Shown: positions 8,529 through 23,192, counted from the first letter of the stretch. The stretch: 64,000 nucleotides of DNA from Candidatus Parvarchaeum sp. (GCA_020724955.1 DYFY01000002.1:28864-92863); one strand, 5' to 3'. Notes: a model not told the origin generated them from the sequence alone. Made by a program: numbers and translations.

Positions 8529-9074
8529 ATGATAAAAGTAGCTATTTTTATTGATGGTAATAATTTCTATTTTGGATTAAAAAAGTTATATGGCGATGAT
8601 TTTAAGGCAATGAAATTCAATTTTGAGAAGTTCTGTAATTTTATAGCTAATAAAAGAGAAATAGCTAATATATTCTATTACAACGCCCCCTTAGATATCA
8701 CCAAGGATATTGAAAAATATAAACTCCAACAAAGGTTCTTTGATAAGATTAGTAGAATTCCAAAATTTAATCTTGTTTTGTGTAAAATGGTTAAAAGGAG
8801 AATTAAAGGAACAAATGAATTTTATTATGTCCTCAAAGAAGACGATATTCATATGGCAGTTGATTTAGTTAAGGGGGCTTTCAAAAATACATATGATGAA
8901 GCGATTCTCGTTTCTGGAGATGGCGATTTTGTGCCAGCTGTTAAAGTTGCAAGAGAAGAGAAGAAAAAAGTTGAGAATATCTATTTCAAGAAAAGTGCCT
9001 CCACAAATTTAAAACAAAATTGTGACAAGTCTTTTCTGTTAAGAAAAGAGCTTCTTGATAAATTTTTTGATTGA
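8529..9074 (+). CDS. NYN-domain (LabA/DUF88-like) putative ribonuclease
   Basis: VAIFIDGNNFYFG..., ...EDDIHMAVDL..., ILVSGDGDFVPAV acidic motifs; first ATG at 8529 (track start is TTG). Confidence 0.8.
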   Translation: MIKVAIFIDGNNFYFGLKKLYGDDFKAMKFNFEKFCNFIANKREIANIFYYNAPLDITKDIEKYKLQQRFFDKISRIPKFNLVLCKMVKRRIKGTNEFYYVLKEDDIHMAVDLVKGAFKNTYDEAILVSGDGDFVPAVKVAREEKKKVENIYFKKSASTNLKQNCDKSFLLRKELLDKFFD

Positions 9075-9194
9075 AAAGTGCCCAATTAAATTCTCTGCGA
9101 AGCAGGCTATTTGTGCCGAAGGCACCGAGGCGATTCACATTTGACAACAATTTCTCCTATTGGATGGGAGAGAATTCTTAATTTGGACGCAATC

Positions 9195-9358
9195 TGGGAA
9201 CATCGCGATTAAGCGACCTGAAAGGCTCGAGGTGGAGAAATTTTTCCCTCGACGAAGTCAGAGCTGGAAAAATTGCGGAACGCTCGAGTGTTTTTGCGTA
9301 GCAAAAATATGGGTGGATGAGCCTGCAAGGCGAAGTAACCGCTTAATCGCTGTTAGTT
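9195..9358. repeat. Hairpin site S1 (R2 type): TGGGAAC...GTTAGTT
   Basis: AACA 9199-9202 pairs with TGTT 9351-9354; GCGATTAAGCG 9205-9215 pairs with CGCTTAATCGC 9340-9350; near-identical copy at 11149-11313. Confidence 0.7.
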
Positions 9359-9555
9359 TCGTCTGACCAACGGGAAGACCTGATTTTTAATGCAATGGTC
9401 GGCGAAGCCGAAAAAATCAGAGTTTGAGAGCCCGAGCTTTTTGTCAATAATCTGCTTTAGCAGACAATAGTTTAGGGGTGCCCGCCATTCTATTACTAAT
9501 TTAGAAGTGGTTACACAAGCGAAAGGTTTATAAATGATTTCGAATTAGCTAAATT

Positions 9556-9921
9556 ATGAAAAATACAACAAGTATTGAAGGTGTAGTGGACTCTGTTAAT
9601 ATTGACAACAGAAGCAATAATTATTGTTATTTAAATCTAGCCGTAGTTATAGGTGACGGTTCTACAAAAGAAATAAAATTTCCAATTCTCAAGAGAGGAA
9701 CAAATCCTAGATTGAATGGGATTGAAGAGAATGGAACATTTTTAAGAGAAGCTATCTCTTCTTCTCTATTAAATCAAAGGGTAGCATATAAGCTAGAATC
9801 AGACGTTGATGCTGGCAGTTCTGGGTTTTCCTATTCATCACATGAAAGGCATCAACTTGATATCTTGAGTGGTCCATTAGAAGGTAGAAGTTGTTTAGCA
9901 GACGAATACGATCCTCTTTAA
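9556..9921 (+). CDS. Hypothetical protein (cassette ORF)
   Basis: 121-aa ORF with ATG start, enclosed by three nested inverted repeats. Confidence 0.5.
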   Translation: MKNTTSIEGVVDSVNIDNRSNNYCYLNLAVVIGDGSTKEIKFPILKRGTNPRLNGIEENGTFLREAISSSLLNQRVAYKLESDVDAGSSGFSYSSHERHQLDILSGPLEGRSCLADEYDPL

Positions 9922-10007
9922 ATTTCTATTTTTTTGACGATAAAGTCAAGACTATCTGTTGCGAAGCAACTGCGGGCACCCCGTTTTTGCGAGGGCTCTC
10001 AAATTGA

Positions 10008-10100
10008 AACCAACATCCCATATTAAAGAAAGTTTTCTGTTAAGAAAATTTGGGAGAGCAACGTTTAGGGTACCTGTGAACTCTTTAATATATGTTCTGT
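10008..10100. repeat. Hairpin site S2 (R1 type): AACCAAC...GTTCTGT
   Basis: AACA 10012-10015 pairs with TGTT 10093-10096; ATATTAAAGA 10020-10029 pairs with TCTTTAATAT 10082-10091. Confidence 0.65.
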
Positions 10101-10223
10101 GCCTTTTTTCCTCAATCATTAGAGTGGAAAAAGCGAGCAATGATAATTGCTAAGAGTTTTGCTCCTAATCAGGGCTGGATGGTTGGGGTTGTGGATGGGT
10201 AGAAAAAGGAGCAAAATTGCATA
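10011..10223. repeat. 213-bp unit, copy 1 (same as 13634-13846 and 13847-14059)
   Basis: No differences seen by eye; ORF-track antisense peptides from the copies are identical over the shared part. Confidence 0.85.
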
Positions 10224-10357
10224 GAACATCGCGATTAAGAGAAGTTGTTTGCAGTAATTTTAATTCGTCCATAGGCAAACAATTTGGGCTAATTTCTGGT
10301 CGGCACGAAGCAGATTTGCGAAGCAAAAAGAAATTACCTCTTAATCGGCTGTTGGGA
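10221..10357. repeat. Hairpin site S3 (R3 type): ATAGAAC...GTTGGGA
   Basis: AACA 10225-10228 pairs with TGTT 10350-10353; CGATTAAGAG 10232-10241 pairs with CTCTTAATCG 10338-10347; internal stems TTGTTTGC/GCAAACAA and TAATTTCT/AGAAATTA. Confidence 0.65.
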
Positions 10358-10535
10358 GATTTTTCTCGTAGAGAAAAACACGAGCTGACGCACTAAGCGT
10401 CCTCGTGAGTAAAAAATTATCTTTGGGCGGGGGCGGAGGTGGAAGCTCCGCAATTAAATAGGAAAAATTATCGTGCTATTTTGAAAAATTAGGGTTGGGC
10501 GAAAGTTTTAAAAAAAGATAAAAAGCTACTAACTT

Positions 10536-10961
10536 ATGGAATCGAATGTATTAGAACAAAAAATTGATGAAATTTTAGACTTGAATAAAAGAGATAAGTC
10601 CAATAGATTCAATAGATTTAGAGGAGAACTTTTCATACTGGAAGAAGCTTATGAAGAAAATCCAGACAATTTAACAAACGAACAAAAGAAAAAATTATCA
10701 AAACTTGAAATGAAATTGGGACATTTGAGATTAGGAATGGCTGGATTTTTTGCTGGAGCCGCCGTTGGTTGTGGCATAGCAACTTACGCTAATGTTCACG
10801 ACATTGTTGAGAATGGAGTAACTGCTGCAAATTTATTAAACTCAACATTTTGGGGTGTAGAAACATTACTAACAACTGCGGGCTCTGCCATATGGGCTTA
10901 TCTCTCTTCGATTCCATATAGAAAAGGAAGAGATATTAATTATTCTGAAGCCCAAACCTAA
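10536..10961 (+). CDS. Hypothetical membrane protein (cassette ORF)
   Basis: 141 aa; charged N-terminal part, Gly/Ala-rich hydrophobic C-terminal part. Confidence 0.5.
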   Translation: MESNVLEQKIDEILDLNKRDKSNRFNRFRGELFILEEAYEENPDNLTNEQKKKLSKLEMKLGHLRLGMAGFFAGAAVGCGIATYANVHDIVENGVTAANLLNSTFWGVETLLTTAGSAIWAYLSSIPYRKGRDINYSEAQT

Positions 10962-11148
10962 GAAAAATTTGGGTGAGTGAAACGAACTGCTTAACCTTTG
11001 TTATAAGAAGTTTCAATTTCTTTCCGTTTTCGTTTATGGGTCAAGCAAAGTTTTTCTATTAATTTTCACGATAATTTTTCAGTATCTGGGTGGGAAGAAA
11101 GATAATTTTTTATTTCCCCGAGCCGAAGAATGAGGCGAGTGGTGTCAA

Positions 11149-11313
11149 TCCCAACATCGCGATTAAGCGACCTGAAAGGCTCGAGGTGTAGAAATTTTTC
11201 CCTCGACAAAGTCAGAGCTGGAAAAATTGCGGAACGCTCGAGTGTTTTTGCGTAGCAAAAATATGGGGGGATGAGCCTGCAAGGCGAAGTAACCGCTTAA
11301 TCTGCTGTTCATT
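11149..11313. repeat. Hairpin site S4 (R2 type, second copy): TCCCAAC...GTTCATT
   Basis: 4 substitutions and one 1-nt indel versus S1; identity starts at AAC and stops at GTT. Confidence 0.7.
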
Positions 11314-11515
11314 TCTCCCGAATACTTGCAGGGATTACATTTTAGTGCAACGATGCCGAAGGCAAAAATGTAAAGTTAAATCGGACTTTGGGATGGTGGG
11401 AACACCATTGGTTTTTATGTATTAGAGGATTCGCCGTCTTTTTGCTTCTTTTTTCTAAAAAGAAGATGGGGCACTTTTAGGAATCTTTATAAGTTTGTTA
11501 TTGATTTATTTAATT

Positions 11516-12010
11516 ATGAAGCCAAGGCATTTAGGAATATCAATAATAATTGTTAGCATAATTGTAATTGGTATGCTTTTTTATTTCAATTCTATCTTAA
11601 ATAAACAAAATTTAGAAATCTGTTCTGAAAGTTGCGGAACACAAGAAGGAGCTTCTTGTTCTATTGAATCGTGTCCTTTTAATGCAGAACATAATAACAG
11701 CGAGGGTTTTATTTTTATTATGGGCTTGCTCGTTGCATTTTTAGGAGGAATTGGTTTTTATCTCACTCTGACAAAAGCGGAAAAACTAATTGAACAAAAA
11801 GAATATGATTTAACCAAATTAAATAATGAAGAAAAGGATATTTTCCTGTTTATCAAAGAAAATAAAGATAAGGGAGTTTATCAGAGTAATATCGTTGAAA
11901 AATTCAATATTCCAAAATCAAAAGTTTCAAGAATATTGGATAAAATGGAAAGATTAGAAATTATTGAGAAGAAAAGAAGGGGAATGACAAATATTATTCT
12001 TTTGAAATAG
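11516..12010 (+). CDS. Membrane-anchored winged-helix regulator with an extracytoplasmic Cys cluster
   Basis: TM, then CSESCGTQEGASCSIESC, then TM, then C-terminal HTH (VYQSNIVEKFNIPKSKVSRILDKMERLEIIEKKRRG); first ATG at 11516. Confidence 0.55.
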   Translation: MKPRHLGISIIIVSIIVIGMLFYFNSILNKQNLEICSESCGTQEGASCSIESCPFNAEHNNSEGFIFIMGLLVAFLGGIGFYLTLTKAEKLIEQKEYDLTKLNNEEKDIFLFIKENKDKGVYQSNIVEKFNIPKSKVSRILDKMERLEIIEKKRRGMTNIILLK

Positions 12011-12079
12011 GACTAGTTTCAGCCAGTAGAACTAGTTTCACGTTACACTTATAAGCTGTAATTTTAACTTATTTTAATC

Positions 12080-12607
12080 ATGAGTCAGGAAATTAAGATA
12101 AAAAAGAGAACTTTATTCATTTCATTGGCAATAGTCTTTAAATTTGCTGTTTTGAGTAAAGCAAATACAAATTCTTGTGGCGGAACATTTAATTATGTTG
12201 ATTCAAAATCGCCGGACCAGAGAATCCAAGGTTCGTGTTGCGGACCTATGAATTTTCATAGATATACTGAACAAATAGAAGCACTGAAGGAATATTCAAA
12301 ATACAAGAAAATTCCTTCTGACCCTTATGATGTATCTGTTGCATTAGCCCAAGAATTATTAGATTATCAGAAAGAAATAATTTTAACAAATGAAAAACAA
12401 TTAATTTATGATGAAGCAATGGACATTTCTCATGAAGGCGGACCTTGTTGCTGTAAATGCTGGCATTGGTATGCTTACGAGGGCTTGGCAAAATATTTGA
12501 TAGTTGAAGAAGACTTTACTGCTGAACAAATAGCGGAAGTCTGGGATATTTCTGATGCTTGTGGAGGAAGCGGACATGTTGAAGGGGGAGGACATGGTCA
12601 TACATAG
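12080..12607 (+). CDS. Secreted or anchored Cys- and His-rich protein
   Basis: N-terminal hydrophobic segment; SCCGP, GGPCCCKCWHW, CGGSGHVEGGGHGHT motifs. Confidence 0.5.
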   Translation: MSQEIKIKKRTLFISLAIVFKFAVLSKANTNSCGGTFNYVDSKSPDQRIQGSCCGPMNFHRYTEQIEALKEYSKYKKIPSDPYDVSVALAQELLDYQKEIILTNEKQLIYDEAMDISHEGGPCCCKCWHWYAYEGLAKYLIVEEDFTAEQIAEVWDISDACGGSGHVEGGGHGHT

Positions 12608-12628
12608 ACAAATGAAAGGAGGTAAAAA

Positions 12629-13369
12629 ATGAGTGAAGCAACTTTAACAATAAGGAAAGACGCATTATGGAAATATAGCACTTTTTTACTTTTGGCTATA
12701 TTAGTAATTGGAGCTTTTTTTGTTTTCACAGGAAATAATAGCGGAACAACTGGAAACAATGTTGTTGCTCCAACACAACAACCAACACAGCCATCACAAG
12801 TTGAGGCAAGTGCGGACGATGATGCGTTTTTGGGAGATAAAAATGCTCCTGTTGAAATAATTGAGTTTTCTGATTATCAGTGTCCATTCTGTAGGAAATT
12901 CTGGACAGAAACTTTGCCACAAATAAAATCCGAATACATTGATACAGGAAAAGTTAAATTTGTGTATAGAGATTTTCCTTTAGATAGTATTCACCCCGGA
13001 GCTACACCTGCGGCTGAAGCTGCCGAATGTGTAAGGGATCAAGGTGGAGATGAAGCCTATTTTGAAATGCATGATAAGATTTTCTCAGAACAGAATATTC
13101 TTGATGGTGGAGACCCAATTTCTGGACCTGTAAGAGGAACAGCCCAGTTTGGAACAACTGAATTGAAAAAATGGGCTCAAGATATTGGCTATGACATTGG
13201 AAGCTGTCTTGATTCTGGAAAATTCAGAAGTGAAGTGCAAAATGATTTATCAGATGCGCAATCTGCTGGCGGAAGAGGAACTCCGTATTTTGTAATTAAT
13301 GGGAAGCCCTTAAGTGGAGCACAGCCTTTCAGTGCATTTAAACAGGTCATTGACGCAGAATTAGCTTAA
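12629..13369 (+). CDS. DsbA-like thiol:disulfide oxidoreductase, membrane-anchored
   Basis: TM anchor, thioredoxin-fold active site FSDYQCPFCRKFW, C-terminal GTPYFVINGK. Confidence 0.8.
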   Translation: MSEATLTIRKDALWKYSTFLLLAILVIGAFFVFTGNNSGTTGNNVVAPTQQPTQPSQVEASADDDAFLGDKNAPVEIIEFSDYQCPFCRKFWTETLPQIKSEYIDTGKVKFVYRDFPLDSIHPGATPAAEAAECVRDQGGDEAYFEMHDKIFSEQNILDGGDPISGPVRGTAQFGTTELKKWAQDIGYDIGSCLDSGKFRSEVQNDLSDAQSAGGRGTPYFVINGKPLSGAQPFSAFKQVIDAELA

Positions 13370-13630
13370 TTTTATTTTTTCTTTTTTATTTATTTTTTCT
13401 AAAAGTGCCCCAATAAAAAACTGAAAAATATTTGGATGTAACGAAGTGAAATCTTTTATCGTTTGTTAGGCGAAATTTTAACAAATTTCATTGGTTTTTT
13501 CTAGGTCCGATAAAAGAAGTATTTTTCTGTTTTTATCCTCGCTGAAAGCGACTATTTGTCCGAAGGACGACGGCGAATCCTCATCTTTAGGGGCGGGTGG
13601 TCGGGGGATTTCAAAGTCCGATTTAATTGA

Positions 13631-13723
13631 AATGAACATCCCATATTAAAGAAAGTTTTCTGTTAAGAAAATTTGGGAGAGCAACGTTTAGGGTACCTGT
13701 GAACTCTTTAATATATGTTCTGT
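13631..13723. repeat. Hairpin site S5 (R1 type): AATGAAC...GTTCTGT
   Basis: Same hairpin as S2; only the 4 nt 5' of AAC differ. Confidence 0.65.
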
Positions 13724-14059
13724 GCCTTTTTTCCTCAATCATTAGAGTGGAAAAAGCGAGCAATGATAATTGCTAAGAGTTTTGCTCCTAATCAGGGCTG
13801 GATGGTTGGGGTTGTGGATGGGTAGAAAAAGGAGCAAAATTGCATAGAACATCCCATATTAAAGAAAGTTTTCTGTTAAGAAAATTTGGGAGAGCAACGT
13901 TTAGGGTACCTGTGAACTCTTTAATATATGTTCTGTGCCTTTTTTCCTCAATCATTAGAGTGGAAAAAGCGAGCAATGATAATTGCTAAGAGTTTTGCTC
14001 CTAATCAGGGCTGGATGGTTGGGGTTGTGGATGGGTAGAAAAAGGAGCAAAATTGCATA
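13634..14059. repeat. Two exact tandem copies of the 213-bp unit
   Basis: GAACATCCC recurs at 13634 and 13847, and GAACA again at 14060; period 213. Confidence 0.9.
13844..13936. repeat. Hairpin site S6 (R1 type): ATAGAAC...GTTCTGT
   Basis: Second tandem copy of the R1 hairpin. Confidence 0.65.
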
Positions 14060-14116
14060 GAACAAAACGGATATTAACCTTTTAGAGGTTATATATCCGT
14101 TTAAAGGATGTTTAGT
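14057..14116. promoter_or_regulatory. Terminal site S7: ATAGAAC, 15/16-nt inverted arms around a 7-nt spacer, GTTTAGT (candidate recombinase core site)
   Basis: AAACGGATATTAACC (14065-14079), TTTTAGA, GGTTATATATCCGTTT (14087-14102); about 50 nt upstream of the recombinase ATG. Confidence 0.45.
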
Positions 14117-14150
14117 AACCTTTTTATATTTTAACCGGCTTTTGCATTTA

Positions 14151-14987
14151 ATGGAAAAAGAAGAGCAGCTTCAAAGATTAACTGAACATCTACAGCTGAA
14201 AAATTATTCCAGAGAAACACAAAAAACATATTTATTTCATGTTAAAAAATACATTGAATTTCTTGGCGGGGAAAAGCCGTCTATTGAAAATGCAAAAAGA
14301 TACGTCCTGAAAAAACTTGAGACAAAAGATCCTTCATCTGTCCATCATCTCATATTCGCAATAGAATATTTCTTCAAAAACATTCTCTCTCAAAAAATAT
14401 ATATTCCAAAACCCAAAAGAAACAAGACTCTTCCAGCAATACTCACAAAGGAAGAAATAGCTTTAATCGTTAAATCAACAACAAACATAAAACACAGATT
14501 GATAATAAAGCTTCTCTATGGATGCGGGCTGAGAGTCTCTGAAATAATAAGTCTGAAAAAAGAAGATATTAATTTTGAAGAAAACCTAATCCATATAAAA
14601 TTGGCAAAGGGTAAAAAAGACAGGTTTGTAAAAATACCTGACTCTCTTACACAAGAACTCATGGCATTTTGTAATCTAACCGGCACAGAGATACTCTTTC
14701 CCTCTGCCAGGAGCGGGAAGCTGACAAAAAAGACAATCACAAAAATAGTCCAAAATTCTGCAAAAAAAGCCGGAATTAAAAAAAGAGTTTACCCTCATTT
14801 GCTCAGACACAGCTTCGCCACGCATTTGCTCGAACAAGGCACTGATTTGAGAATAATTCAAAAACTCCTTGGACACAGCGATATAAAAACCACTCAGATT
14901 TACACACAAATATCTCAGGCTTCAATAAAAAATATTAAAAGCCCTCTCGACAGCATTAATCTTTATGGAACCGAAGCTAACAATTGA
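14151..14987 (+). CDS. xerA: Tyrosine recombinase, XerA/XerC/XerD-like
   Basis: N-terminal SAM-like core-binding domain; GLRVSE (Arg), KGKKDR (Lys), HLLRHSFATHL (H..R), LGHSDIKTTQIYT (His, Tyr); first ATG at 14151. Confidence 0.85.
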   Translation: MEKEEQLQRLTEHLQLKNYSRETQKTYLFHVKKYIEFLGGEKPSIENAKRYVLKKLETKDPSSVHHLIFAIEYFFKNILSQKIYIPKPKRNKTLPAILTKEEIALIVKSTTNIKHRLIIKLLYGCGLRVSEIISLKKEDINFEENLIHIKLAKGKKDRFVKIPDSLTQELMAFCNLTGTEILFPSARSGKLTKKTITKIVQNSAKKAGIKKRVYPHLLRHSFATHLLEQGTDLRIIQKLLGHSDIKTTQIYTQISQASIKNIKSPLDSINLYGTEANN

Positions 14988-17166
14988 AAAGCCTGTAAAG
15001 CAAAAACCAAAACTTTCAGAACTGACAAAAATAGAGGTTCCTGGCAAGCCGATTCCTGCAGAAAATCTCGAAAATGATGTGGTAGAGAAAAAAAGAAAAA
15101 AACCAGGAAAAAGGAGTCCAAAGTCCTCAAGTTTGGCTACTTCTATAAAACAGCCTGAAAAAGATTCAGTCCTGATAATAACTGAAAAACCACAGGCAGC
15201 CGAAAAAATCGCCAACTCCTTAGGGCAGGCCAGAAAATATGTTGAAAACCGGGTTCCATTCTACGAAGTCTCTATTAATGGGGAAAACATAATAGTTGCT
15301 TCTGCAGTTGGGCATTTATTTAATCTTACTTATGCCTCTGGAGAAAGGGGCTGGCCGGTCTTCAAAATGCTTTGGGAGCCAAGTTTTAAGAAAGCAAGTT
15401 TTACAAAAAACTATTATGACTTGCTAAAAAAACTCTCAAAAAGAGCAAAATCATTTGTTGTGGCTACTGATTATGACATCGAGGGAGAGGTAATTGGATG
15501 GAATGTTTTAAGATTTATAGCCCGACAGCAAGACGCTAAAAGAATGAAATATTCTACTTTGACAAAACCAGAGCTTTTGAAATCATACCAAAATGCACTC
15601 CCTACGCTAGACTGGGGGCAGGCTTACGCTGGCGAAACAAGGCACCGAATAGACTGGCTTTATGGAATAAACCTTTCTCGCGCACTAATGTCTGCAATAA
15701 AAACCTCCGGCTCTTTCAAAATTCTTTCAATTGGGAGAGTGCAAGGGCCTGCCTTGAAAATTATAGTAGACAGAGAGAGAGAAATCTCCGGTTTCAGGCC
15801 TGTTCCATATTGGCAGGTCATAGCTTTGGTGAAGGGTGTTGAACTAAAACACTCCAAAGATATTTTTGACAAAAAAGAACTAGATGATTTCAAGAACTTA
15901 AAATCAGGCTCATGCACTACAAAAATCTCGGAGGAAATTTTACATCCTCCTCACCCTTTTGATTTGACAAGTTTGCAGAGAGAATCATACAATCTTCACG
16001 GAATTTCTCCTTCCAACACACTCCGCATCGCACAGTCGCTCTACCTCTCAGGACTTATTTCATATCCGAGAACATCTTCTCAAAAAATACCAAAAGAAAT
16101 AAATCCCAAATTAATTCTCGAAAATTTAAAGAAGAAGTTTCCGGAACTAACAAAACACATTTCAAGATCAGAGCCGATAGAGGGGCAAAAATCAGATCCT
16201 GCGCATCCATCTATATTTCCCACTGGAGAATTCAAAAAACTTGAAGGTGATGAGAAAAAGATATATGAATTAGTTGTTAGAAGATTTATATCCTGCTTTT
16301 CCGCAGATGCAAAATTAGACAGAAAGCGCATAACTCTCAATGCAGAAGAAAAAAAATTCACTGCATCCGGAGTGAAAATAAAATTTCCCGGATGGCTTTC
16401 AGTTTATCCTGCAAAAATAGAAGAATCAGAACTCCCGACTCTTGAAGGAAAACAAAAAATAGACGAGATAAAATTTCTGGAAAAAGAAACGCAGCCTCCA
16501 AAACGCTACACTCCTGCGTCTTTGGTAACCTTGCTTGAAAAAAAAGGCCTCGGAACCAAGACAACAAGATCAATGATAGTTGACACTTTATTCAACAGAG
16601 GTTATTTAGAAGGAAAATCCATTCAGGCCACACCACTGGGAATCAGGCTGATAGAAGCTCTTGAGAAATACTCTCCTATAATAATAGACGAAAACTTGAC
16701 AAGAGATTTGGAAAAGAAAATGGAGGAAATCCAAAACTCAAAATCTGGCTTTGAAGAAAAGGAAAAAGCAATAATAGAAAGTGTAGAGCGCCTGATAACA
16801 GATATTTCAAAAGAATTCAAAATTCATGAGAAAAACATTGGGGTCTCATTGCAGGAGGGCACCCAAGAACTCCGCGAACAGCAAAACGAGCAAAACACAA
16901 TAGCTAAATGTCCTGTCTGCAATCTTGGACAACTGGCAATAAAATATTCTAAAAAAACAAACAAATATTTTGTTGCATGCAACAGGTATCCTGAATGCAC
17001 AGCAACATACAATCTCCCTCCAAACGCACTAATAAAAAACACAGGAAAACTCAACGAAGATGGGCTTCCGATTTTAGTTGCAATCAGAAAAGGAAGACGC
17101 CCATGGGAATTTCCATTTGATCCGCACTGGAAAGAAAAACAAAACCAGGATAAAAAGCAAAGTTAA
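14965..17166 (+). CDS. topA: DNA topoisomerase I, type IA (archaeal TopA) with a Lys-rich N-terminal extension
   Basis: Toprim VLIITEKP...DYDIEGE, active-site ISYPRTSS, C-terminal zinc ribbon CPVC...CNRYPEC; overlaps the xer 3' end by 23 nt. Confidence 0.9.
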   Translation: MEPKLTIEKPVKQKPKLSELTKIEVPGKPIPAENLENDVVEKKRKKPGKRSPKSSSLATSIKQPEKDSVLIITEKPQAAEKIANSLGQARKYVENRVPFYEVSINGENIIVASAVGHLFNLTYASGERGWPVFKMLWEPSFKKASFTKNYYDLLKKLSKRAKSFVVATDYDIEGEVIGWNVLRFIARQQDAKRMKYSTLTKPELLKSYQNALPTLDWGQAYAGETRHRIDWLYGINLSRALMSAIKTSGSFKILSIGRVQGPALKIIVDREREISGFRPVPYWQVIALVKGVELKHSKDIFDKKELDDFKNLKSGSCTTKISEEILHPPHPFDLTSLQRESYNLHGISPSNTLRIAQSLYLSGLISYPRTSSQKIPKEINPKLILENLKKKFPELTKHISRSEPIEGQKSDPAHPSIFPTGEFKKLEGDEKKIYELVVRRFISCFSADAKLDRKRITLNAEEKKFTASGVKIKFPGWLSVYPAKIEESELPTLEGKQKIDEIKFLEKETQPPKRYTPASLVTLLEKKGLGTKTTRSMIVDTLFNRGYLEGKSIQATPLGIRLIEALEKYSPIIIDENLTRDLEKKMEEIQNSKSGFEEKEKAIIESVERLITDISKEFKIHEKNIGVSLQEGTQELREQQNEQNTIAKCPVCNLGQLAIKYSKKTNKYFVACNRYPECTATYNLPPNALIKNTGKLNEDGLPILVAIRKGRRPWEFPFDPHWKEKQNQDKKQS

Positions 17167-17465
17167 GCCGCAATTCTTCCGGGAATTCCATACCTGGAAT
17201 CTTCTGGACCACAGCCAAGATTCCTAGAGCCATAACCTCTCTGTCCTTCAGAATAACTCGGAACCGCCCTATAGGGCAAAGAACTTTGAGCTTCTCTTCC
17301 TAAAACTCCCTGAAAATACCTCACCTCTGGACTCAAAATTCTGTCAGGATCAGAATATATGTCTTTCCTAGCATGTGGCCCTCTTTCTATAGAAAGAGAA
17401 CTTCCGGCATTTTCAGTTTCCTTCCTAATTCGTCTAAAAATAGGATTGGAGTCATATTCTGTCAT
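17163..17465 (-). CDS. Hypothetical low-complexity protein downstream of rpl15e
   Basis: 100-aa ORF starting 1 nt after the L15e stop; no motif recognised and coding status uncertain. Confidence 0.3.
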   Translation of the reverse strand: MTEYDSNPIFRRIRKETENAGSSLSIERGPHARKDIYSDPDRILSPEVRYFQGVLGREAQSSLPYRAVPSYSEGQRGYGSRNLGCGPEDSRYGIPGRIAA

Positions 17466-17466
17466 C

Positions 17467-18042
17467 TTATTTCCCCCTTCTGTCCCACGCTCTCAGGCTC
17501 GGCCTGACTTTTTTATTAGGGCCCTTGCCTCGCAGTCCTCTGGATTTTTTAGCAGAGCTGGTTAATCCGCGCTCGGCTCTTTTTCTGTTCGCTCCTTTTG
17601 TTATCCATTTGATAGTCCTGTCGTTCTTTATTTCAGGTTTTGAAGGATCAACCATAATAACTTCATAAAAATAATACATTCCATCCTGCCCTATCCAATA
17701 AGAATTCAGCACCTCCAAATTTTTGTATTTTCTGGCGGCTCTGATCTCAGCCACCCATTTATAATTCATTTTCAAAGTTTTTCTTATTGTCTGCTTTCTT
17801 GACTTTCTCCCTTTAACCTGAGCTCTCTCCCTTTTCCTTCCGCCCCTTCTCACCCTGACTCTTACAACGACAAATCCTCTCTTTGCTTTGTATCCAAGCC
17901 CTCTCGCTCTGTCCAATCTTGAAGGTTTCTCAACTACAACCGCTGCCTCGCTTTTTCTCCACTCAATCATCCTGCTATGAACATCCTTAGCGTCGGGCTT
18001 TTTCCATGCCTCCCGCAGATAATAATACAATCCCTTTGTCAT
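17467..18042 (-). CDS. rpl15e: 50S ribosomal protein L15e
   Basis: YYYLREAWKKP..., RLDRARGLGYKAK.GFVVVRVRVRRGG; first ATG at 18042. Confidence 0.9.
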   Translation of the reverse strand: MTKGLYYYLREAWKKPDAKDVHSRMIEWRKSEAAVVVEKPSRLDRARGLGYKAKRGFVVVRVRVRRGGRKRERAQVKGRKSRKQTIRKTLKMNYKWVAEIRAARKYKNLEVLNSYWIGQDGMYYFYEVIMVDPSKPEIKNDRTIKWITKGANRKRAERGLTSSAKKSRGLRGKGPNKKVRPSLRAWDRRGK

Positions 18043-18212
18043 CTTCAAACATGATAAATTTGGTTTTTAAATCTTCTTATAACATTAAATGCAGTTCGTA
18101 GCTCAGCACAAAATTTCAGTTTTCATGTTGTTTCATAAAATGCTTTTAATAAAGCAATATTTTTAGTGTGCGCGTTTTAAGTCAAATTATAAGTTTCTTC
18201 ATACATAAAAAA

Positions 18213-18287
18213 TGATCGCGCCAAGATTTGAACTTGGGACCCCTGCCTTATCAGAGCAGTGCTCTAACCAGACTGAGCTACGCGATC
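18213..18287 (-). tRNA. tRNA-Ile (GAU)
   Basis: Manual cloverleaf: acceptor GAUCGCG/CGCGAUC, D arm GCUC..GAGC, anticodon loop CUGAUAA, T arm CCAAG-UUCAAAU-CUUGG; no encoded CCA. Confidence 0.9.
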
Positions 18288-18506
18288 ATACACTAACTAA
18301 AAAATAATTCGTTTTTAAGTCTTCTGTCTATTCAGGCTTTGCGCAAAAAGCAACTCTTGCACAAAAAGCGATTTAGCTGTCGTGCAAAGCATAAAACATC
18401 TTTCACTATAGATACATTTTATTCATCAAATCAATTTATTTTCTGTCAATTAAATAAAACTACCTGATATTTACCTAGTTAGCTTCAATTTAAAATTCTG
18501 TCTAAT

Positions 18507-18794
18507 CTATTTTTCAGAATTCTCTGGAAGCCCATAGTTATGGATAGCAGCTCCAAGTTTTGCCCCAGGATAAGTCCAAGCCGCCAAAGCATATGCACCG
18601 ATTCCTTCGCCATATTGTTCTTTGCTCTGTTCCAAATAGGCCATAAAAGATGTGTCCTGAATTCTCACTCTGTTGAATGGTTGAATATTTGATTCTAGTC
18701 CAAGAACAGAGCCAAATACTCCCAATCCTCCCAATCCCAAAGCCATAGCTAAAACAACTTCCAATGTTTTTGGAGCTTTCTTTTTCTCTTCCAC
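18507..18794 (-). CDS. Hypothetical small membrane protein
   Basis: 95-aa ORF with a GTG start and a Gly-rich TM segment. Confidence 0.35.
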   Translation of the reverse strand: MEEKKKAPKTLEVVLAMALGLGGLGVFGSVLGLESNIQPFNRVRIQDTSFMAYLEQSKEQYGEGIGAYALAAWTYPGAKLGAAIHNYGLPENSEK

Positions 18795-19115
18795 AACTTT
18801 CTTGGGATTCTAAATTTTATAAGTTTTTCTACCGCCTGAACCTCAAACTTTGGATTTTTCAGTTTTGGCAAAAGATACACTAAAATCCAGCCTCTATCGA
18901 AAGAAACTAACAGAAATTTAACGAAGTTTATTCCGACCTAAAAAAATAAATTTGGATAGAAAAACCTGCAAATATTTAGGAACCGTTAAATTCCAACGCT
19001 AGTTAGAACTATCTCCAGCTGCTGCTAACTTGATATTTAGTGAACTAAAAAACCAACTATTTTATATCCAGCCACGAGCTGAAGAAGGATAAATTTCTTA
19101 CACGTTCAGTTAAAA

Positions 19116-19742
19116 TCAATACAGCCCGAACTCAACACTCAAAGTTTTCCCGTCAATTCTGATTCCCTTCAGGGGCAGATCAACAGGAAGTGAATTAACA
19201 TAAACTTTCTTCTTCCCAATAGCCTTCACTTCATAGCCACTTTCAAGCTTTGAAATAAAAACATCTTCAGGAGACTCAATTCCGCTGGCTCCAAGCTCAT
19301 AAACAATCTTGTCGCTTAATCTCCTCACACTTGATTTTGCCTCAACCCTTGGAAGTCCTTCCATTCGTTTAATCTGCTCAGGAGTTATCCCTTTCCTAAC
19401 AGCTTTCTGCTGTTGCTTTTGTTGCGGAACTCCAAACTGAATTCTTATGCCATTAGGAAGATTCTGGACATTTGCCCCATCCATTTGGGAATTCTTCATT
19501 TGTTTTTCAAGGCTTTTCATCAGGCTGTTGAAAATAGAACTAATCATCTTATCACTAATTCCGAGCCCGCCGAGCCCGCCGACAAGCGGCGCCCCGCTAA
19601 CAAAATTGTTTTTTCCAAGCGCTCCAAAATTTCTCATATCTTCTTCGGGATTCCTCAAGTCAAGCCCGCAATAAGGACAAAAGTCAAAACTATCCTTGAC
19701 CTTGCTTTTGCACTTCATGCACTTCATTTTTTCTCCAAACAT
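19116..19742 (-). CDS. Zinc-ribbon protein with a C-terminal beta-sandwich (HSP20-like) region
   Basis: CMKCKSK...CPYCG at the N-terminus; C-terminal pattern resembles the alpha-crystallin fold. Confidence 0.45.
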   Translation of the reverse strand: MFGEKMKCMKCKSKVKDSFDFCPYCGLDLRNPEEDMRNFGALGKNNFVSGAPLVGGLGGLGISDKMISSIFNSLMKSLEKQMKNSQMDGANVQNLPNGIRIQFGVPQQKQQQKAVRKGITPEQIKRMEGLPRVEAKSSVRRLSDKIVYELGASGIESPEDVFISKLESGYEVKAIGKKKVYVNSLPVDLPLKGIRIDGKTLSVEFGLY

Positions 19743-19835
19743 TCCAATTCCTATTCATTCCTACTTTTAAAACTTGCGGAAGATAATTCCATCAAAAAAA
19801 GCTAATTTTATATACCTGTCAATCCTTGAGCCTTA

Positions 19836-20024
19836 ATGAATGCAGAAATAATAATATCAATAATTGCAGTCCTAATAGTATTAGAAGGAGCCATTATAGC
19901 GTTCAACCCAAACTGGACAAGAAGAGTCTTTCAGAAACTCGCAAGAAAAAACTCCTCAGTTAGAACTCTTGGTATAATCGAAATAATTATCGGGATTTTG
20001 CTGTTTCTGATTTCTGTTTACTAA
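19836..20024 (+). CDS. Small two-TM protein (DUF2065-like)
   Basis: 62 aa; LEGAIIAFNPNWTRRVF...LGIIEIIIG pattern. Confidence 0.45.
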   Translation: MNAEIIISIIAVLIVLEGAIIAFNPNWTRRVFQKLARKNSSVRTLGIIEIIIGILLFLISVY

Positions 20025-20037
20025 AATCAAACGTTTT

Positions 20038-20508
20038 CTAGGTTCTTATCCTATAATACGAGAAAATAATTTTACCCAAGATTAATATCAAAAATGGGAT
20101 TGTTAGAACGACTATCTTGATATTGTTATTATTTAACTTACGATAAATCTTTGATCCTATAGATATAATCAATAAAGAAATAAACATAAATGGAATTTGA
20201 ATATAAACGATACCTATACCTCCCCAATCATCAGACATCCCTAAAAAAAATTGAATAACTAACAACAAACCAGCAAATAAGAATGGTCTTAAAAGTCCAT
20301 AAGAACATAAAATTAAAAACAAGGTCATTAACATTACAAAAATAAGGCTAATAAAAAAAATATGGAAACTGCCTCCTGAAAAAAATCCTTTCCAAAATAT
20401 CATTCCTGCCAATAAGAAAGATAAAACAGCAAAGTATCCAACACCTTTTAAAAAATGATTTACACTATATTCCTCTTTAACTCCAAAAACCTCTCTCCAC
20501 CAAATCAT
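20038..20508 (-). CDS. Hypothetical polytopic membrane protein
   Basis: 156 aa with four to five hydrophobic helices. Confidence 0.45.
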   Translation of the reverse strand: MIWWREVFGVKEEYSVNHFLKGVGYFAVLSFLLAGMIFWKGFFSGGSFHIFFISLIFVMLMTLFLILCSYGLLRPFLFAGLLLVIQFFLGMSDDWGGIGIVYIQIPFMFISLLIISIGSKIYRKLNNNNIKIVVLTIPFLILILGKIIFSYYRIRT

Positions 20509-20541
20509 CTTACACGCAAGAAATCCTTATATATAAAAATA

Positions 20542-20613
20542 TGCGCCGGCCGGGAATTGAACCCGGATCGCCAGCTTGGGAAGCTAGAATCATAACCATT
20601 AGACCACCGGCGC
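20542..20613 (-). tRNA. tRNA-Gly (CCC)
   Basis: Manual cloverleaf: acceptor GCGCCGG/CCGGCGC, anticodon stem CUAGC/GCUGG, loop UUCCCAA, T arm CCGGG-UUCAAUU-CCCGG. Confidence 0.85.
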
Positions 20614-20656
20614 GCACAACCCTCACAATACCAGAATAAATAAACTTTACCAATAA

Positions 20657-21181
20657 TTATTGCAATTCTCCCTCTAATAACATGGGAACAAGACTTTCTA
20701 GAAATCTTTTATCCGTTTCATCAAAAGCATTTTTATATGCTGCATCAACATCAAAAACTCCTATCACCCTCCCTGCCTTGTCCTTTATTGGCACTACAAT
20801 TTCTGAAACAGCTCTGGCATCGCAAACTATATGTCCTGGAAAATCATTCACATCAGGAACTATCAAAGTCTCCCCTCTCTTGGCAGCTGTCCCGCAAACT
20901 CCTGTGTAAGCAATATTTGGACAAGCAATCACTCCTTGATACGGCCCGACAACAAGCTCCTTCTCCTCTGCAAAATAAAAACCGCACCACAAATAATGAG
21001 GCATATATTGCTTTAAAACCGCAGTAACTGTGGCCATTCTTGGAACAATCATCCCGCCCTCAAGAGTCGCAAGCTGTGATTTTATTTCTTCCAATGCCCT
21101 ATCATACAGCCTCTGCTTCTCTTCGGCAGCAACCCCTACAAATTTATCAGAAGCAGTGTTTTTGTTTTCCGTCATTCCCAT
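20657..21181 (-). CDS. GAF-domain free methionine-(R)-sulfoxide reductase-like protein
   Basis: WCGFY...GPYQG..AC..I..G.GVCG.AA...VPDV..FPGHI.CD..S.SEIVVPI...G.VIGVFDVD matches the fRMsr pattern; probable ATG at 21181. Confidence 0.75.
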   Translation of the reverse strand: MGMTENKNTASDKFVGVAAEEKQRLYDRALEEIKSQLATLEGGMIVPRMATVTAVLKQYMPHYLWCGFYFAEEKELVVGPYQGVIACPNIAYTGVCGTAAKRGETLIVPDVNDFPGHIVCDARAVSEIVVPIKDKAGRVIGVFDVDAAYKNAFDETDKRFLESLVPMLLEGELQ

Positions 21182-21301
21182 GACCCCAATAATACGCTGA
21201 AACAATGCTTTAAATAATTTTCTAAACCTCCAAAATAACAGCAATAGGAGGCTTATGCCCGACGGCAGAAGATTTAAAAACTATTTTCCACTGAAATTTT
21301 T

Positions 21302-22072
21302 ATGAATAGAATGATTAGAAAAATACCAAAAGACGTCAAAGATAAAATTCTTAGCTCTCTGGACCGCAAGCTAAGAGAAGAAATTAATCCAAATAAAGAC
21401 CCAAATGAGATAGCTGAAGATTTTAACAGAATATTCAAAATAGAGTTTGAGGAAAAACGCAGAACAAGTGTAGAAGGCGGAAGGCATAATATGCCTGTTG
21501 TATTTATAGGACAATACAAAATAAATCCGGCCAGTATAGGTGCGAAGAAAGAACCAGAGGTTGTACTTTACAAATCAATCGGTTTTGGTTGTTCTCCAAT
21601 ACCTATCGATCCTACAAAAAGCATTATAGCAAGAGCTGTGATAAATGGCACACACCAACATATTCCAGATGTTAGCAGGGATCCAAGCCACTGGGAATGT
21701 AGCGGCGAAGCAAGTCACGAAGAAGTATACCCTATTTTTTCATGGGGATATACTTCAGGAAATTTAAAAGGATATCAAGCAGTTGTTGGGGTTCATGACA
21801 TAGATTTCGCAGACAGAAATGCCTTAACTTTAAGAGAATCTAGATTGCTAGGAAATATAATTTATCCAATAGGAGAATTAATATTCCCAGGACAACCGGA
21901 ATTTCAGTTAGATCATAAAAGTTTAATATATAGAAGGCCAGTTATGCAAAGAGAGAGCGCAAGGAATCTTAGCGAAGGAAACTCAATTCCAGGCAGATAC
22001 GCAGATTCTGTAAACTCCAGAAATATGGAAAAATGGAAAAATCCTAGTAAATCGCAAAGATTAGAAAGATAA
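21302..22072 (+). CDS. Divergent fRMsr/GAF-like paralogue with N- and C-terminal extensions
   Basis: C.PIP...IIARAV..G....IPDV..DPSHWEC......EEVYPIF...AVVGVHDIDF aligns by eye with the neighbouring GAF protein. Confidence 0.4.
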   Translation: MNRMIRKIPKDVKDKILSSLDRKLREEINPNKDPNEIAEDFNRIFKIEFEEKRRTSVEGGRHNMPVVFIGQYKINPASIGAKKEPEVVLYKSIGFGCSPIPIDPTKSIIARAVINGTHQHIPDVSRDPSHWECSGEASHEEVYPIFSWGYTSGNLKGYQAVVGVHDIDFADRNALTLRESRLLGNIIYPIGELIFPGQPEFQLDHKSLIYRRPVMQRESARNLSEGNSIPGRYADSVNSRNMEKWKNPSKSQRLER

Positions 22073-22108
22073 CACTATATTTTTATATTCAAAATTTTCT
22101 GACAATCA

Positions 22109-23158: not shown

Positions 23159-23192
23159 TTAGCTTTTTATACAATCTTTCCCTGTTTCTTGA

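What the first reader, a model, noticed from the sequence alone, without database searches (positions are those of the whole stretch)
10011..14059. Exact 213-bp ORF-less unit present three times, twice in tandem, with identity bounded by AACA
The unit occurs at 10011-10223, 13634-13846 and 13847-14059, and I saw no differences by eye. Identity among all three begins at AACATCCC and ends at ...GCATAGAACA, so both edges fall in the shared AACA motif. That is the signature of duplication by site-specific crossover at this motif rather than by slippage. Each unit contains one hairpin site (S2, S5 or S6) plus a 120-nt non-coding segment. The central TGTTC can pair either with the GAACA at the unit start or, as TGTTCTGTGC / GCATAGAACA, with the unit end, giving two mutually exclusive folds. 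Because the hairpin always travels with the segment to its right, the cassette definition favours reading the array from the recombinase side leftwards.
Basis: seen in the sequence. Interest (0 to 1): 0.65.

Follow-up and report, generated by a model that had tools for sequence, protein, structure and literature searches.

The report
Empty cassette repeated beside archaeal xerA
A 213-bp mobile cassette with no gene occurs three times in an integron-like cassette array that a DPANN archaeon keeps directly upstream of its Xer-type recombinase gene, so the array behaves like a bacterial integron but sits beside a recombinase of a different kind.

Summary

The unit is the smallest cassette of a six-cassette array (9199-14064). 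Each cassette starts with a structured hairpin site (AACA, bulge, stem ... stem, TGTT). The array abuts a dif-like palindrome and a tyrosine recombinase gene (14151-14987). That recombinase is an archaeal XerA type and lacks the integron-integrase-specific domain.

Three comparisons place the crossover in AACA and show that the hairpin travels with the DNA to its right:
- the triple repeat itself;
- a homologous three-gene cassette in another Pacearchaeota genome, whose homology starts and stops at AACA;
- a second metagenome assembly, 100% identical from the xerA-proximal AACA onward for 10.9 kb, with a different cassette to its left.

The same sites, in the same orientation, lie upstream of xerA in all nine related genomes with enough flank, and their stems covary.

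The "two exclusive folds" are one recombination box split by integration. The tandem copy number could not be verified independently. I judge this a new variant of the integron kind.

The parts
9199..9354 (+). Hairpin site S1 (type T1, 156 nt): AACA-TC-GCGATTAAGCG ... CGCTTAATCGC-TGTT. It is the distal end of the array and starts cassette a6 (9201-10013, ORF 9556-9921).
   Evidence: It is 98% identical to S4 over 150 nt. The R1 model gives only a weak partial hit.
10012..10228 (+). Unit copy 1: hairpin S2 (type T2, 10012-10096) plus a 128-nt tail and the terminal AACA. With the AA|C cut convention, the cassette is 10014-10226 (213 bp, no ORF).
   Evidence: Exact identity, stops in all frames, R1 model 70.5 bits. 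The left junction is confirmed by L086 and the right junction by L083 and L084.
10225..10353 (+). Hairpin site S3 (type T3, 129 nt). It starts cassette a4 (10227-11154, ORF 10536-10961, 141 aa, no family match).
   Evidence: fold -22.3 kcal/mol, z -3.1; R1 36.6 bits; no Pfam or NCBIfam match.
11153..11309 (+). Hairpin site S4 (type T1). It starts cassette a3 (11155-13636), which carries three + strand ORFs: 11495-12010 (MarR/DUF7343-like), 12080-12607 (unknown) and 12629-13369 (DsbA/thioredoxin-like).
   Evidence: A homologous cassette in L025 has homology limits at AACA on both ends.
13635..13851 (+). Unit copy 2 (hairpin S5 at 13635-13719 plus tail). Cassette 13637-13849.
   Evidence: R1 71.1 bits. 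The left junction is confirmed by L083 and L085.
13848..14064 (+). Unit copy 3 (hairpin S6 at 13848-13932 plus tail). Cassette 13850-14062. It is the recombinase-proximal cassette and ends in the AACA that abuts the palindrome.
   Evidence: R1 68.7 bits. At this tandem junction the site folds with an 11-bp R stem, a CCC bulge and a 10-bp L stem, -17 kcal/mol.
14061..14102 (+). Proposed insertion point (attI equivalent): AACA (14061-14064) followed by a palindrome, AAACGGATATTAACC / TTTTAGA / GGTTATATATCCGTTT (14065-14102). It is dif-like: arms of 11 nt or more with a spacer of about 6 nt.
   Evidence: Fold -13.7 kcal/mol, z -7.2. The same layout is found in about 17 related genomes: ATTGnAnnTAACA, then 2-4 nt, then a palindrome whose sequence differs between genomes, then a TATA-like box, then xerA. 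The window and L082 diverge exactly at this AACA.
14151..14987 (+). xerA-type tyrosine recombinase (278 aa from ATG 14151; the ORF listing gives a TTG start at 14142). It overlaps the start of archaeal topA (14965-17166).
   Evidence: NCBIfam recomb_XerA_Arch 230 bits (cutoff 220); integron-integrase model 210 bits (cutoff 265), matched in two pieces. It aligns end to end with P. abyssi XerA (4a8e). Against VchIntIA (2a3v), query residues 170-194 face chain residues 174-242, so about 44 residues are missing. RHRHY catalytic motifs are visible in the alignment. This exact protein is on record in 4 contigs.
18903..18999 (+). Solitary degenerate copy of the hairpin site, 3.9 kb downstream of xerA. 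It has no bulge and no TGTT box, and is probably a relic.
   Evidence: R1 35.8 bits; alignment shown.

Best explanation
The 213-bp unit is an empty (cargo-less) mobile cassette of an integron-like cassette array that a DPANN (Pacearchaeota/Woesearchaeota-type) archaeon keeps immediately upstream of its xerA-type recombinase gene.

A cassette runs from the AA|CA of one hairpin site to the AA|CA of the next. It consists of a structured site of about 80-160 nt (AACA, a 2-4 nt bulge, a 10-11 bp stem, an inner three-way junction, the return stem, TGTT plus 6 nt), then cargo, then a conserved non-coding tail ending in ATTG-N6-AAC. The last 6 nt before AAC are complementary to the 6 nt after TGTT, so excision as a circle rebuilds a complete hairpin: an R stem of 10-11 bp, a bulge, and an L stem.

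Proposed cycle (inferred, not shown):
1. The XerA-type recombinase excises a cassette by crossover between two AACA boxes.
2. It re-inserts the folded circle at the AACA that abuts the dif-like palindrome next to xerA.
3. This is probably a single-strand exchange completed by replication, as in integrons and CTX phage.

The unit contains only the site and the tail. The copy at 10014-10226 would be the older one, and the two copies at 13637-14062 would be successive re-insertions at the recombinase-proximal site.
For: Shown:
1. Three letter-identical copies, with identity ending inside or at AACA.
2. All six hairpin sites and the xerA-proximal palindrome begin with AACA. The scanner finds 6 sites against 0.25 in shuffles.
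3. Split box: the bases after TGTT of site n are the reverse complement of the bases before AACA of site n+1, not of its own flank. This holds in the window and in half of 24 adjacent pairs across 9 arrays, against 4.6% of non-adjacent pairs.
4. The L025 homologue of the S4-plus-three-gene cassette (84-88% nt) has homology limits at AACA on both sides.
5. L082 is identical to the window over 10,927 bp from AACA 14061 rightward and carries a different cassette to its left. That is cassette turnover at the recombinase-proximal position in a population with the same backbone.
6. The recombinase is XerA-type with catalytic motifs and no IntI insertion. It is the only tyrosine recombinase in the window.
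7. Family level: covariance model R1 finds more than 30 sites, all on the xerA-sense strand. All lie upstream of xerA except one relic. Every one of the 9 related loci with at least 2.5 kb of upstream flank has one or more.
8. 14 of 25 consensus pairs show compensatory changes, so intrastrand folding is under selection.
9. The T2 site folds far better at the tandem or circular junction than in the single-copy context.

From the literature: P. abyssi XerA also binds stem-loop structures of unrelated att sites (PMC8371274), and Sulfolobus dif sites lie close to xerA with a 13-bp conserved flank on one side (PMC2958812).
Against: - No experiment or read-level data links XerA to these sites. An integron integrase elsewhere in the genome cannot be excluded from 64 kb.
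- The bulge lies on the arm next to the crossover box. In classical attC sites the extrahelical bases lie on the arm away from it, so the integron mechanism cannot be transferred unchanged.
- The stem of the hairpin sites (ATTAAG type) is conserved between species while the xerA-proximal palindrome differs between species. One recombinase recognising both by sequence is therefore not obvious.
- One cassette in L004 and two in L025 do not obey the split-box rule.
- An invariant G·T pair in the inner hairpin would fit RNA better than DNA.
- The tandem junction is not confirmed by an independent assembly, and a tandem copy could also arise by slippage between GAACA repeats.
- S1 and S4 share a 98% identical site but carry different cargo. 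This needs either exchange at the TGTT box as well, or gene conversion.
Confidence: 0.7

Rival explanations
1. This is a classical integron array without its integrase (a CALIN). The cassettes are moved by a true IntI encoded elsewhere in the genome or in a co-resident organism, and the position next to xerA is incidental.
For: Ghaly et al. 2022 list Pacearchaeales and Woesearchaeales genomes with 3-5 attC sites and no IntI. The site layout (AAC box, spacer, inverted stems, GTT box, asymmetric bulge) resembles the attC layout. Only 64 kb of the genome is visible.
Against: The array abuts xerA, in the same orientation, in all 9 related loci with enough flank, and the last AACA always sits 2-4 nt from the xerA-proximal palindrome. 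Cassette turnover maps to exactly that AACA. The archaeal attC sequences printed in that paper are of the classical bacterial type and unlike these sites. The bulge is on the opposite arm relative to the crossover.
Confidence: 0.1
2. These are Xer-exploiting integrative elements (IMEX-like) stacked at the chromosomal dif site by ordinary duplex recombination. The hairpins are not folded substrates but pairs of inverted degenerate dif-like sites.
For: The palindrome upstream of xerA has the dif layout, two arms of 11 nt or more with a spacer of about 6 nt (PMC8371274). More distant Woesearchaeota carry a conserved palindrome, GTTCGTATAA-TAYACC-TTATACGAAC, upstream of xerA. Each half of a hairpin site can be written as arm, 6-8 nt, arm.
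Against: Breakpoints lie in AACA, 4-6 nt outside the palindrome, not at its spacer. The spacing between AAC and the stem varies from 4 to 8 nt among partner sites, which duplex exchange with a fixed overlap would not tolerate. Strong covariation holds between stem halves 60-140 nt apart and in the inner hairpins. GC skew gives no terminus signal at this locus.
Confidence: 0.1
3. The tandem pair, and possibly the copy number in general, is an assembly artefact. The unit is a repeat at which the assembler looped or mis-joined.
For: Every independent short-read contig breaks inside a unit copy. The unit-to-unit junction was not found elsewhere. A 213-bp period is hard to count with short reads, and a circular excised cassette would give the same junction reads.
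Against: Three different left neighbours and at least two different right neighbours of the unit are confirmed by independent contigs from two sources. At least two genomic copies, or one copy plus rearranged subpopulations, must therefore exist. The junction sequence is exactly what site-specific insertion predicts.
Confidence: 0.12
4. The hairpin elements are genes for a family of structured non-coding RNAs, or miniature transposable repeats, unrelated to the recombinase. The unit is such a gene, duplicated.
For: There is a conserved three-way junction with invariant loop motifs (GAAGT, ATTTGGGTGGAG, GGAACC) and an invariant G·U-type pair, with 14 covarying pairs. The unit's fold has z -4.1.
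Against: There is no Rfam match even at E <= 1. The elements mark the exact limits of DNA segments that differ between genomes. Strict orientation and position relative to xerA are not expected for RNA genes or MITEs. There are no target-site duplications, and no terminal repeats other than the shared boxes.
Confidence: 0.05

Closest known systems
Integrons (IntI integrase, attI, attC gene cassettes), including sedentary chromosomal integrons with duplicated and ORF-less cassettes
   Same: Arrays of small cassettes (0.2-2.5 kb here, 0.6-1.2 kb in relatives) lie next to a tyrosine recombinase gene and upstream of its 5' end. Each cassette carries an imperfect hairpin site with AAC/GTT boxes, an asymmetric bulge and a variable-length centre. 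The box is split by integration and rebuilt in the circle. The newest cassettes are at the recombinase-proximal site. [quoted passage not shown] Cassette duplication and ORF-less cassettes in chromosomal integrons are stated from my own knowledge.
   Different: The recombinase lacks the IntI-specific domain and scores as XerA. The bulge is on the arm beside the crossover box. The site centre is a conserved three-way junction with invariant motifs rather than a free variable region. The insertion point abuts a perfect, species-specific palindrome. The ORFs in this array point towards the recombinase gene and appear to carry their own TATA-like boxes (seen in the sequence). There is no evidence of a common Pc promoter.
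Archaeal integrons and CALINs (Ghaly et al. 2022, Sci Adv, PMC9668308)
   Same: The host groups are the same: Pacearchaeales and Woesearchaeales genomes are listed with 3-5 attC sites and no IntI.
   Different: That paper defines archaeal IntIs by the additional domain and treats integrase-less arrays as fragments. The attC sequences it prints are of the classical type. It mentions Xer proteins only as outgroups. I could not check whether its Pacearchaeales CALIN is of the present type.
Xer-exploiting integrative elements, especially CTX phage (folded single-stranded attP recombined with dif by XerCD)
   Same: A Xer-family recombinase, a folded hairpin substrate and stacking of elements beside a dif-like site. 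The CTX mechanism is stated from my own knowledge.
   Different: The crossover here is outside the palindrome, the elements are tiny cassettes rather than phages or islands, and the sites form a conserved structured family.
Archaeal XerA/dif chromosome dimer resolution
   Same: The protein family is the same. The palindrome upstream of xerA has the 11-6-11 dif layout. In Sulfolobus, dif lies close to xerA and has a 13-bp conserved flank on one side only (PMC2958812). Here a conserved motif of about 13 nt, ATTGnAnnTAACA, flanks one side.
   Different: dif is a single-copy duplex site. No cassette array has been described next to it in the papers I could search.

Membership tests
Integron (sensu IntegronFinder / Mazel) | Integrase of the IntI type: a tyrosine recombinase with the IntI-specific additional domain around patch III | tested here: not met
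   TIGR02249 scores 210.5 bits, below the 265 cutoff, and matches in two pieces. NF040815 XerA scores 230 bits, above its 220 cutoff. About 44 residues are missing relative to VchIntIA residues 174-242, and the alignment to XerA 4a8e is gapless.
Integron (sensu IntegronFinder / Mazel) | attC sites: imperfect inverted repeats R''-L''...L'-R' with AAC/GTT boxes, folding as a hairpin with unpaired bases | tested here: inconclusive
   The general layout is met. However, the bulge is on the crossover-side arm and the centre is conserved. The attC covariance model of IntegronFinder was not available.
Integron (sensu IntegronFinder / Mazel) | Cassettes inserted at an attI site adjacent to the integrase gene, with the crossover in the AAC/GTT box | tested here: met
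   Breakpoints lie in AACA. The window and L082 diverge at the xerA-proximal AACA.
Integron (sensu IntegronFinder / Mazel) | Common promoter Pc driving promoterless cassettes oriented away from intI | tested here: not met
   All five ORFs of the array point towards xerA. In L025 orientations are mixed. Promoter function itself was not testable.
Archaeal XerA | Sequence membership in the XerA equivalog, with catalytic residues | tested here: met
Archaeal XerA | Acts at a single dif site (11-6-11 inverted repeat) in the replication terminus to resolve chromosome dimers | tested here: inconclusive
   A palindrome with the dif layout is present upstream of xerA. The GC skew of the 64-kb window shows no terminus signal. 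Activity is not testable here.
IMEX (elements integrating at dif by host Xer) | Crossover within the central region of dif, with the element flanked by dif and a dif-like site | tested here: not met
   Breakpoints are 4-6 nt outside the palindrome.
Known RNA families / IS or MITE repeats | Match to a curated RNA model, or a transposase, terminal inverted repeats and target duplications | tested here: not met
   There is no Rfam hit at the gathering threshold or at E <= 1. There is no second recombinase in the window, and no repeats beyond the shared boxes.

The most novel reading that the evidence does not exclude
A housekeeping-type XerA recombinase, without the domain thought to define integron integrases, runs a true cassette capture-and-shuffle platform in DPANN archaea. 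It would use a conserved three-way-junction DNA hairpin as the cassette site and the flank of its own dif-like palindrome as the insertion point. This would be either an independent invention of the integron principle or a living relative of the Xer-like ancestor of integrons. The many archaeal 'integrase-less' attC clusters might then have their recombinase right beside them.
Probability: 0.5. Interest if true: 0.85.

Novelty: new variant of a known kind. Interest (0 to 1): 0.72.

Why it matters
Integron integrases are defined by an extra domain that reads the extrahelical bases of folded attC sites. The origin of that system from Xer-like recombinases is an open question.

An array that shows the genetic signatures of integron activity but sits beside a plain XerA gives a concrete system in which to ask what is minimally needed for hairpin-cassette recombination. 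Those signatures are box-bounded cassettes, a split box, turnover at the recombinase-proximal site, sharing between species, and a duplicated empty cassette.

The 213-bp unit is a natural minimal substrate, consisting of site and tail only. The protein is small and related to two XerA proteins with solved structures. The claim is therefore directly testable in vitro.

It also suggests how genome-reduced DPANN archaea exchange small accessory genes. It further suggests that integrase-less attC clusters in archaeal MAGs may have been mis-scored because the neighbouring recombinase fails the IntI test.

Tried and rejected
- A metagenome-wide scan for a 22-mer of the unit's tail returned only an unrelated high-GC contig, a chance match. 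The same pattern found nothing in viral contigs.
- A gapped site motif in viral contigs gave 15 loci, none confirmed by the covariance model, so these were chance matches.
- A look-up of the recombinase with the TTG start found nothing. The ATG start at 14151 was needed.
- Look-ups of the spurious ORF spanning the tandem junction found nothing.
- Rfam at the gathering threshold and at E <= 1 found only three tRNAs, all outside the array.
- A repeat protein across the tandem copies (213 = 71 codons) is rejected by stops in every frame.
- The opposite cassette definition (cargo plus the hairpin to its right, crossover at TGTT) would be predicted from ORF orientation and bulge position by analogy with attC. 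It is rejected because all three independent breakpoint sets lie at AACA.
- The idea that the hairpin stem mimics a half-site of the local palindrome is rejected. The stems are conserved across genomes while the palindromes are not.
- A gapless alignment of the arms alone (A1) was not in register for a formal pair count and was replaced by A2.
- G-quadruplex-type runs were counted, but I could not interpret the counts.
- GC skew was uninformative about a terminus.
- The sigma-70 promoter and terminator scan was not used, because the host is an archaeon.

Full report
OBSERVATION

The stretch AACATCCC...GCATAGAACA (217 bp) is letter-identical at 10012-10228, 13635-13851 and 13848-14064. The repeat period is 213 bp, and the two tandem copies share the AACA at 13848-13851. 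Sequence diverges immediately outside AACA on both sides of every copy. There is no fourth copy in the window. All six frames of the unit carry stop codons, so the divisibility of 213 by 3 is a coincidence.

SURROUNDINGS

The unit lies in a 4.9-kb array (9199-14064) of six hairpin sites, all on the + strand. Each has the form AACA, 2-4 unpaired nt, a 10-11 bp stem, a centre of variable length, the return stem, then TGTT.

| Site | Coordinates |
|---|---|
| S1 | 9199-9354 |
| S2 | 10012-10096 |
| S3 | 10225-10353 |
| S4 | 11153-11309 |
| S5 | 13635-13719 |
| S6 | 13848-13932 |

A simple scanner finds these six sites and no others in 64 kb, against a mean of 0.25 in shuffles. S1 and S4 are 98% identical over 150 nt.

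Between the sites lie five + strand ORFs:
- 9556-9921, unknown;
- 10536-10961, unknown;
- 11495-12010, MarR/DUF7343-like;
- 12080-12607, unknown;
- 12629-13369, DsbA/thioredoxin-like.

The last AACA (14061-14064) is followed by a palindrome, AAACGGATATTAACC / TTTTAGA / GGTTATATATCCGTTT (fold z -7.2). Then come a TATA-like box and a tyrosine recombinase gene (ATG 14151 to 14987), which overlaps the start of an archaeal topoisomerase I gene.

THE RECOMBINASE

It passes NCBIfam's archaeal XerA equivalog (230 bits against a cutoff of 220) and fails the integron-integrase model (210 against 265, matched in two pieces). It aligns end to end with P. abyssi XerA (4a8e, E 3.5e-52). Against V. cholerae IntIA (2a3v) its residues 170-194 face chain residues 174-242, so roughly 44 residues are absent where the IntI-specific domain lies. 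The catalytic R, H-x-x-R, H and Y motifs are present in the alignment. tblastn finds no other tyrosine recombinase in the window. The closest relatives (53-79% aa) are in Pacearchaeota, Woesearchaeota and Nanoarchaeota MAGs, so the host is a DPANN archaeon.

WHERE THE CROSSOVER IS, AND WHAT MOVES

Three independent sets of breakpoints agree.

1. The triple repeat is bounded by AACA.
2. L025, a Pacearchaeota MAG from another study with a XerA 65% identical, carries a homologue (84-88% nt) of S4 plus the three-gene block. Homology begins exactly at AACA of the hairpin and ends at AACAT of the next site. The flanks are unrelated, and the next site is of a different type than in the window.
3. L082, a Logan assembly of SRR6488410, is 100% identical to the window from AACA 14061 to 24987 (10,927 bp, no mismatch) but carries a wholly different cassette to the left of that AACA.

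The mobile unit is therefore the hairpin plus the DNA to its right. The crossover is in AACA, and the recombinase-proximal AACA is a site of turnover.

The opposite definition (cargo plus the following hairpin, crossover at TGTT) is what ORF orientation and bulge position would suggest by analogy with attC. It is incompatible with all three breakpoint sets.

THE SPLIT BOX

In the window, the bases after TGTT of each site are the reverse complement of the bases before AACA of the next site, not of its own left flank. Examples: S4 GTTCATTTC against GAAATGAAC before S5, and S2 GTTCTGTGC against GCATAGAAC before S3. Across nine arrays, 12 of 24 adjacent pairs match at 6 or more of 10 positions, against 4.6% of 744 non-adjacent pairs.

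The two ends of a linear cassette therefore carry the two halves of one stem, which is rebuilt when the cassette is circular or tandem. The T2 site at the tandem junction folds with an 11-bp R stem, a CCC bulge and a 10-bp L stem at -17 kcal/mol (z -3.5). In the single-copy context at 10005-10105 it reaches only -9.9 kcal/mol (z -1.4).

FAMILY-WIDE EVIDENCE

In about 17 related genomes the 100 nt upstream of xerA have the same plan:
- ATTGnAnnTAACA;
- 2-4 nt;
- a near-perfect palindrome with arms of 11-15 nt and a 6-nt spacer, whose sequence differs between genomes but stays palindromic;
- a TATA-like box;
- xerA.

Hairpin sites of the same kind lie further upstream. A 12-sequence alignment of the short sites from nine genomes gives a consensus three-way junction with 25 pairs. 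Of these, 14 show compensatory double changes, and the motifs AACAT, ATT(T)AA, GAAGT, ATTTGGG(TGGAG), GGAACC and TGTT are invariant or nearly so.

A covariance model built from this alignment finds more than 30 sites in the window and 49 loci. All are on the xerA-sense strand, and all lie upstream of xerA except one degenerate relic at window 18903-18999. All nine close relatives with at least 2.5 kb of upstream flank have at least one site. Cassette sizes in relatives are mostly 0.6-1.2 kb.

A 100-nt cassette tail is 94% identical between L082 and L006, whose XerA proteins are only 64% identical and whose palindromes differ. Tails, or whole cassettes, therefore move between species.

WHAT THE UNIT IS

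Every cassette ends in a non-coding tail with small GAA-loop hairpins (GCGAAGC and CCGAAGG types), a G-rich motif (TTGGGTGGG-like, GGGGCGGGTGGTCGGGGG) and ATTG-N6-AAC. The unit consists of a T2 site (85 nt) plus such a tail (128 nt) and nothing else. It is an empty cassette, the minimal mobile substrate of the system. Its presence once inside the array and twice at the recombinase-proximal end fits excision after replication followed by re-insertion at the entry site. This last step is inference. For the tandem pair alone, slippage between the GAACA repeats cannot be excluded.

RELIABILITY OF THE ASSEMBLY

Independent contigs match the window at 100% and all end 28-77 nt inside a repeat copy, which is the usual behaviour of short-read assemblers at repeats.

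| Contig | Source | Window coordinates |
|---|---|---|
| L083 | JGI 3300029893 | 10154-13711 |
| L086 | JGI 3300029893 | ends at 10088 |
| L084 | Logan SRR5011275 | 10201-11182 |
| L085 | Logan SRR5011275 | 11273-13663 |

They confirm three junctions and therefore at least two genomic contexts of the unit. The unit-to-unit junction and the unit-to-palindrome junction were not recovered elsewhere, so the tandem copy number is unverified. A circular excised cassette would produce the same junction reads.

MECHANISM AND ITS LIMITS

The best-supported model is an integron-like cycle run by the adjacent XerA-type enzyme: excision between two AACA boxes, a folded circular intermediate, and insertion at the AACA beside the palindrome.

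Shown:
- the anatomy;
- the breakpoints;
- turnover at the recombinase-proximal site;
- covariation in the site stems;
- the linkage to xerA.

Inferred:
- the enzyme;
- the single-stranded substrate;
- the strand that is exchanged;
- resolution by replication.

Points that do not fit a simple transfer of the integron mechanism:
- The bulge sits on the crossover-side arm.
- The site centre is conserved rather than free.
- The site stems are conserved across species while the palindromes are not.
- An invariant G·T pair occurs in the inner hairpin.
- S1 and S4 share a site but carry different cargo.

Whether the palindrome is the chromosomal dif is open. Its layout fits the published 11-6-11 rule (PMC8371274). 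Sulfolobus dif lies near xerA with a one-sided conserved flank (PMC2958812). GC skew in the window gives no terminus signal.

COMPARISON WITH WHAT IS KNOWN

The array works like an integron but fails the defining integrase test, so I do not file it as an integron. It is not a typical Xer-exploiting element, because the crossover is outside the palindrome.

Ghaly et al. 2022 reported attC clusters without integrase in Pacearchaeales and Woesearchaeales. However, the attC sequences they print are of the classical type, and they mention Xer proteins only as outgroups. Five full-text searches found no description of XerA-linked cassette arrays. The library does not hold most subscription journals, so prior description cannot be ruled out.

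VERDICT

- The unit itself behaves as integron cassettes are known to behave.
- The platform it belongs to is, as far as I can tell, a new variant of the integron kind.
- Interest is 0.72.

Noticed in passing
window 18903-18999: A solitary degenerate copy of the hairpin site lies 3.9 kb downstream of xerA in an intergenic region (R1 35.8 bits). It has no bulge, and the TGTT box is replaced. It is also present in L082. It is the only family site not upstream of xerA.
   Followed up: partly
L082 1-726 versus window 13339-14064; L006 9820-9918: A second population (SRR6488410) with an identical backbone has a different first cassette (58-aa ORF). Its 100-nt tail is 94% identical to the tail next to xerA in L006, a different species with a different palindrome.
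   Followed up: partly
window 9075-9198, 9922-10011, 10962-11152, 13370-13634, and the unit tail 10097-10224: Every cassette ends in a non-coding tail. It carries GAA-loop mini-hairpins (GCGAAGC and CCGAAGG; d(GCGAAGC) is known to me as an unusually stable DNA hairpin), a G-rich motif (TTGGGTGGG-like, GGGGCGGGTGGTCGGGGG) and ATTG-N6-AACA. The same motifs recur in relatives. Their function is unknown.
   Followed up: partly
window 9199-9348 versus 11153-11302: S1 and S4 are 98% identical within this genome. The corresponding site in L025 is 92% identical to S1 (over 163 nt), and the S4-containing stretch 11150-12138 is about 88% identical to L025. The two sites carry different cargo. This suggests homogenisation of sites within a genome, or exchange at the TGTT box as well.
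   Followed up: no
window 8529-9198: The NYN-domain gene left of S1 is followed by a typical cassette tail but has no detectable hairpin site upstream. Homologues lie downstream of xerA in L017 and inside the array region, on the other strand, in L025. It may be an old cassette or the array boundary.
   Followed up: no
window 14965-14987; L003, L082: xerA overlaps the start of archaeal topA by 23 nt, and the xerA-topA pair is conserved in relatives. The recombinase therefore sits in a housekeeping neighbourhood.
   Followed up: no
L033 and L074, upstream of xerA: More distant Woesearchaeota (about 40% XerA identity) carry a shared palindrome, GTTCGTATAA-TAYACC-TTATACGAAC, just upstream of xerA. 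It resembles the Thermococcales dif layout. No hairpin-site array was seen in these two loci.
   Followed up: no
alignment A2, columns 27 and 49: A G·T (G·U) pair at the base of the inner hairpin is invariant in 12 of 12 sites from nine genomes. This is unusual for a DNA-only structure.
   Followed up: no
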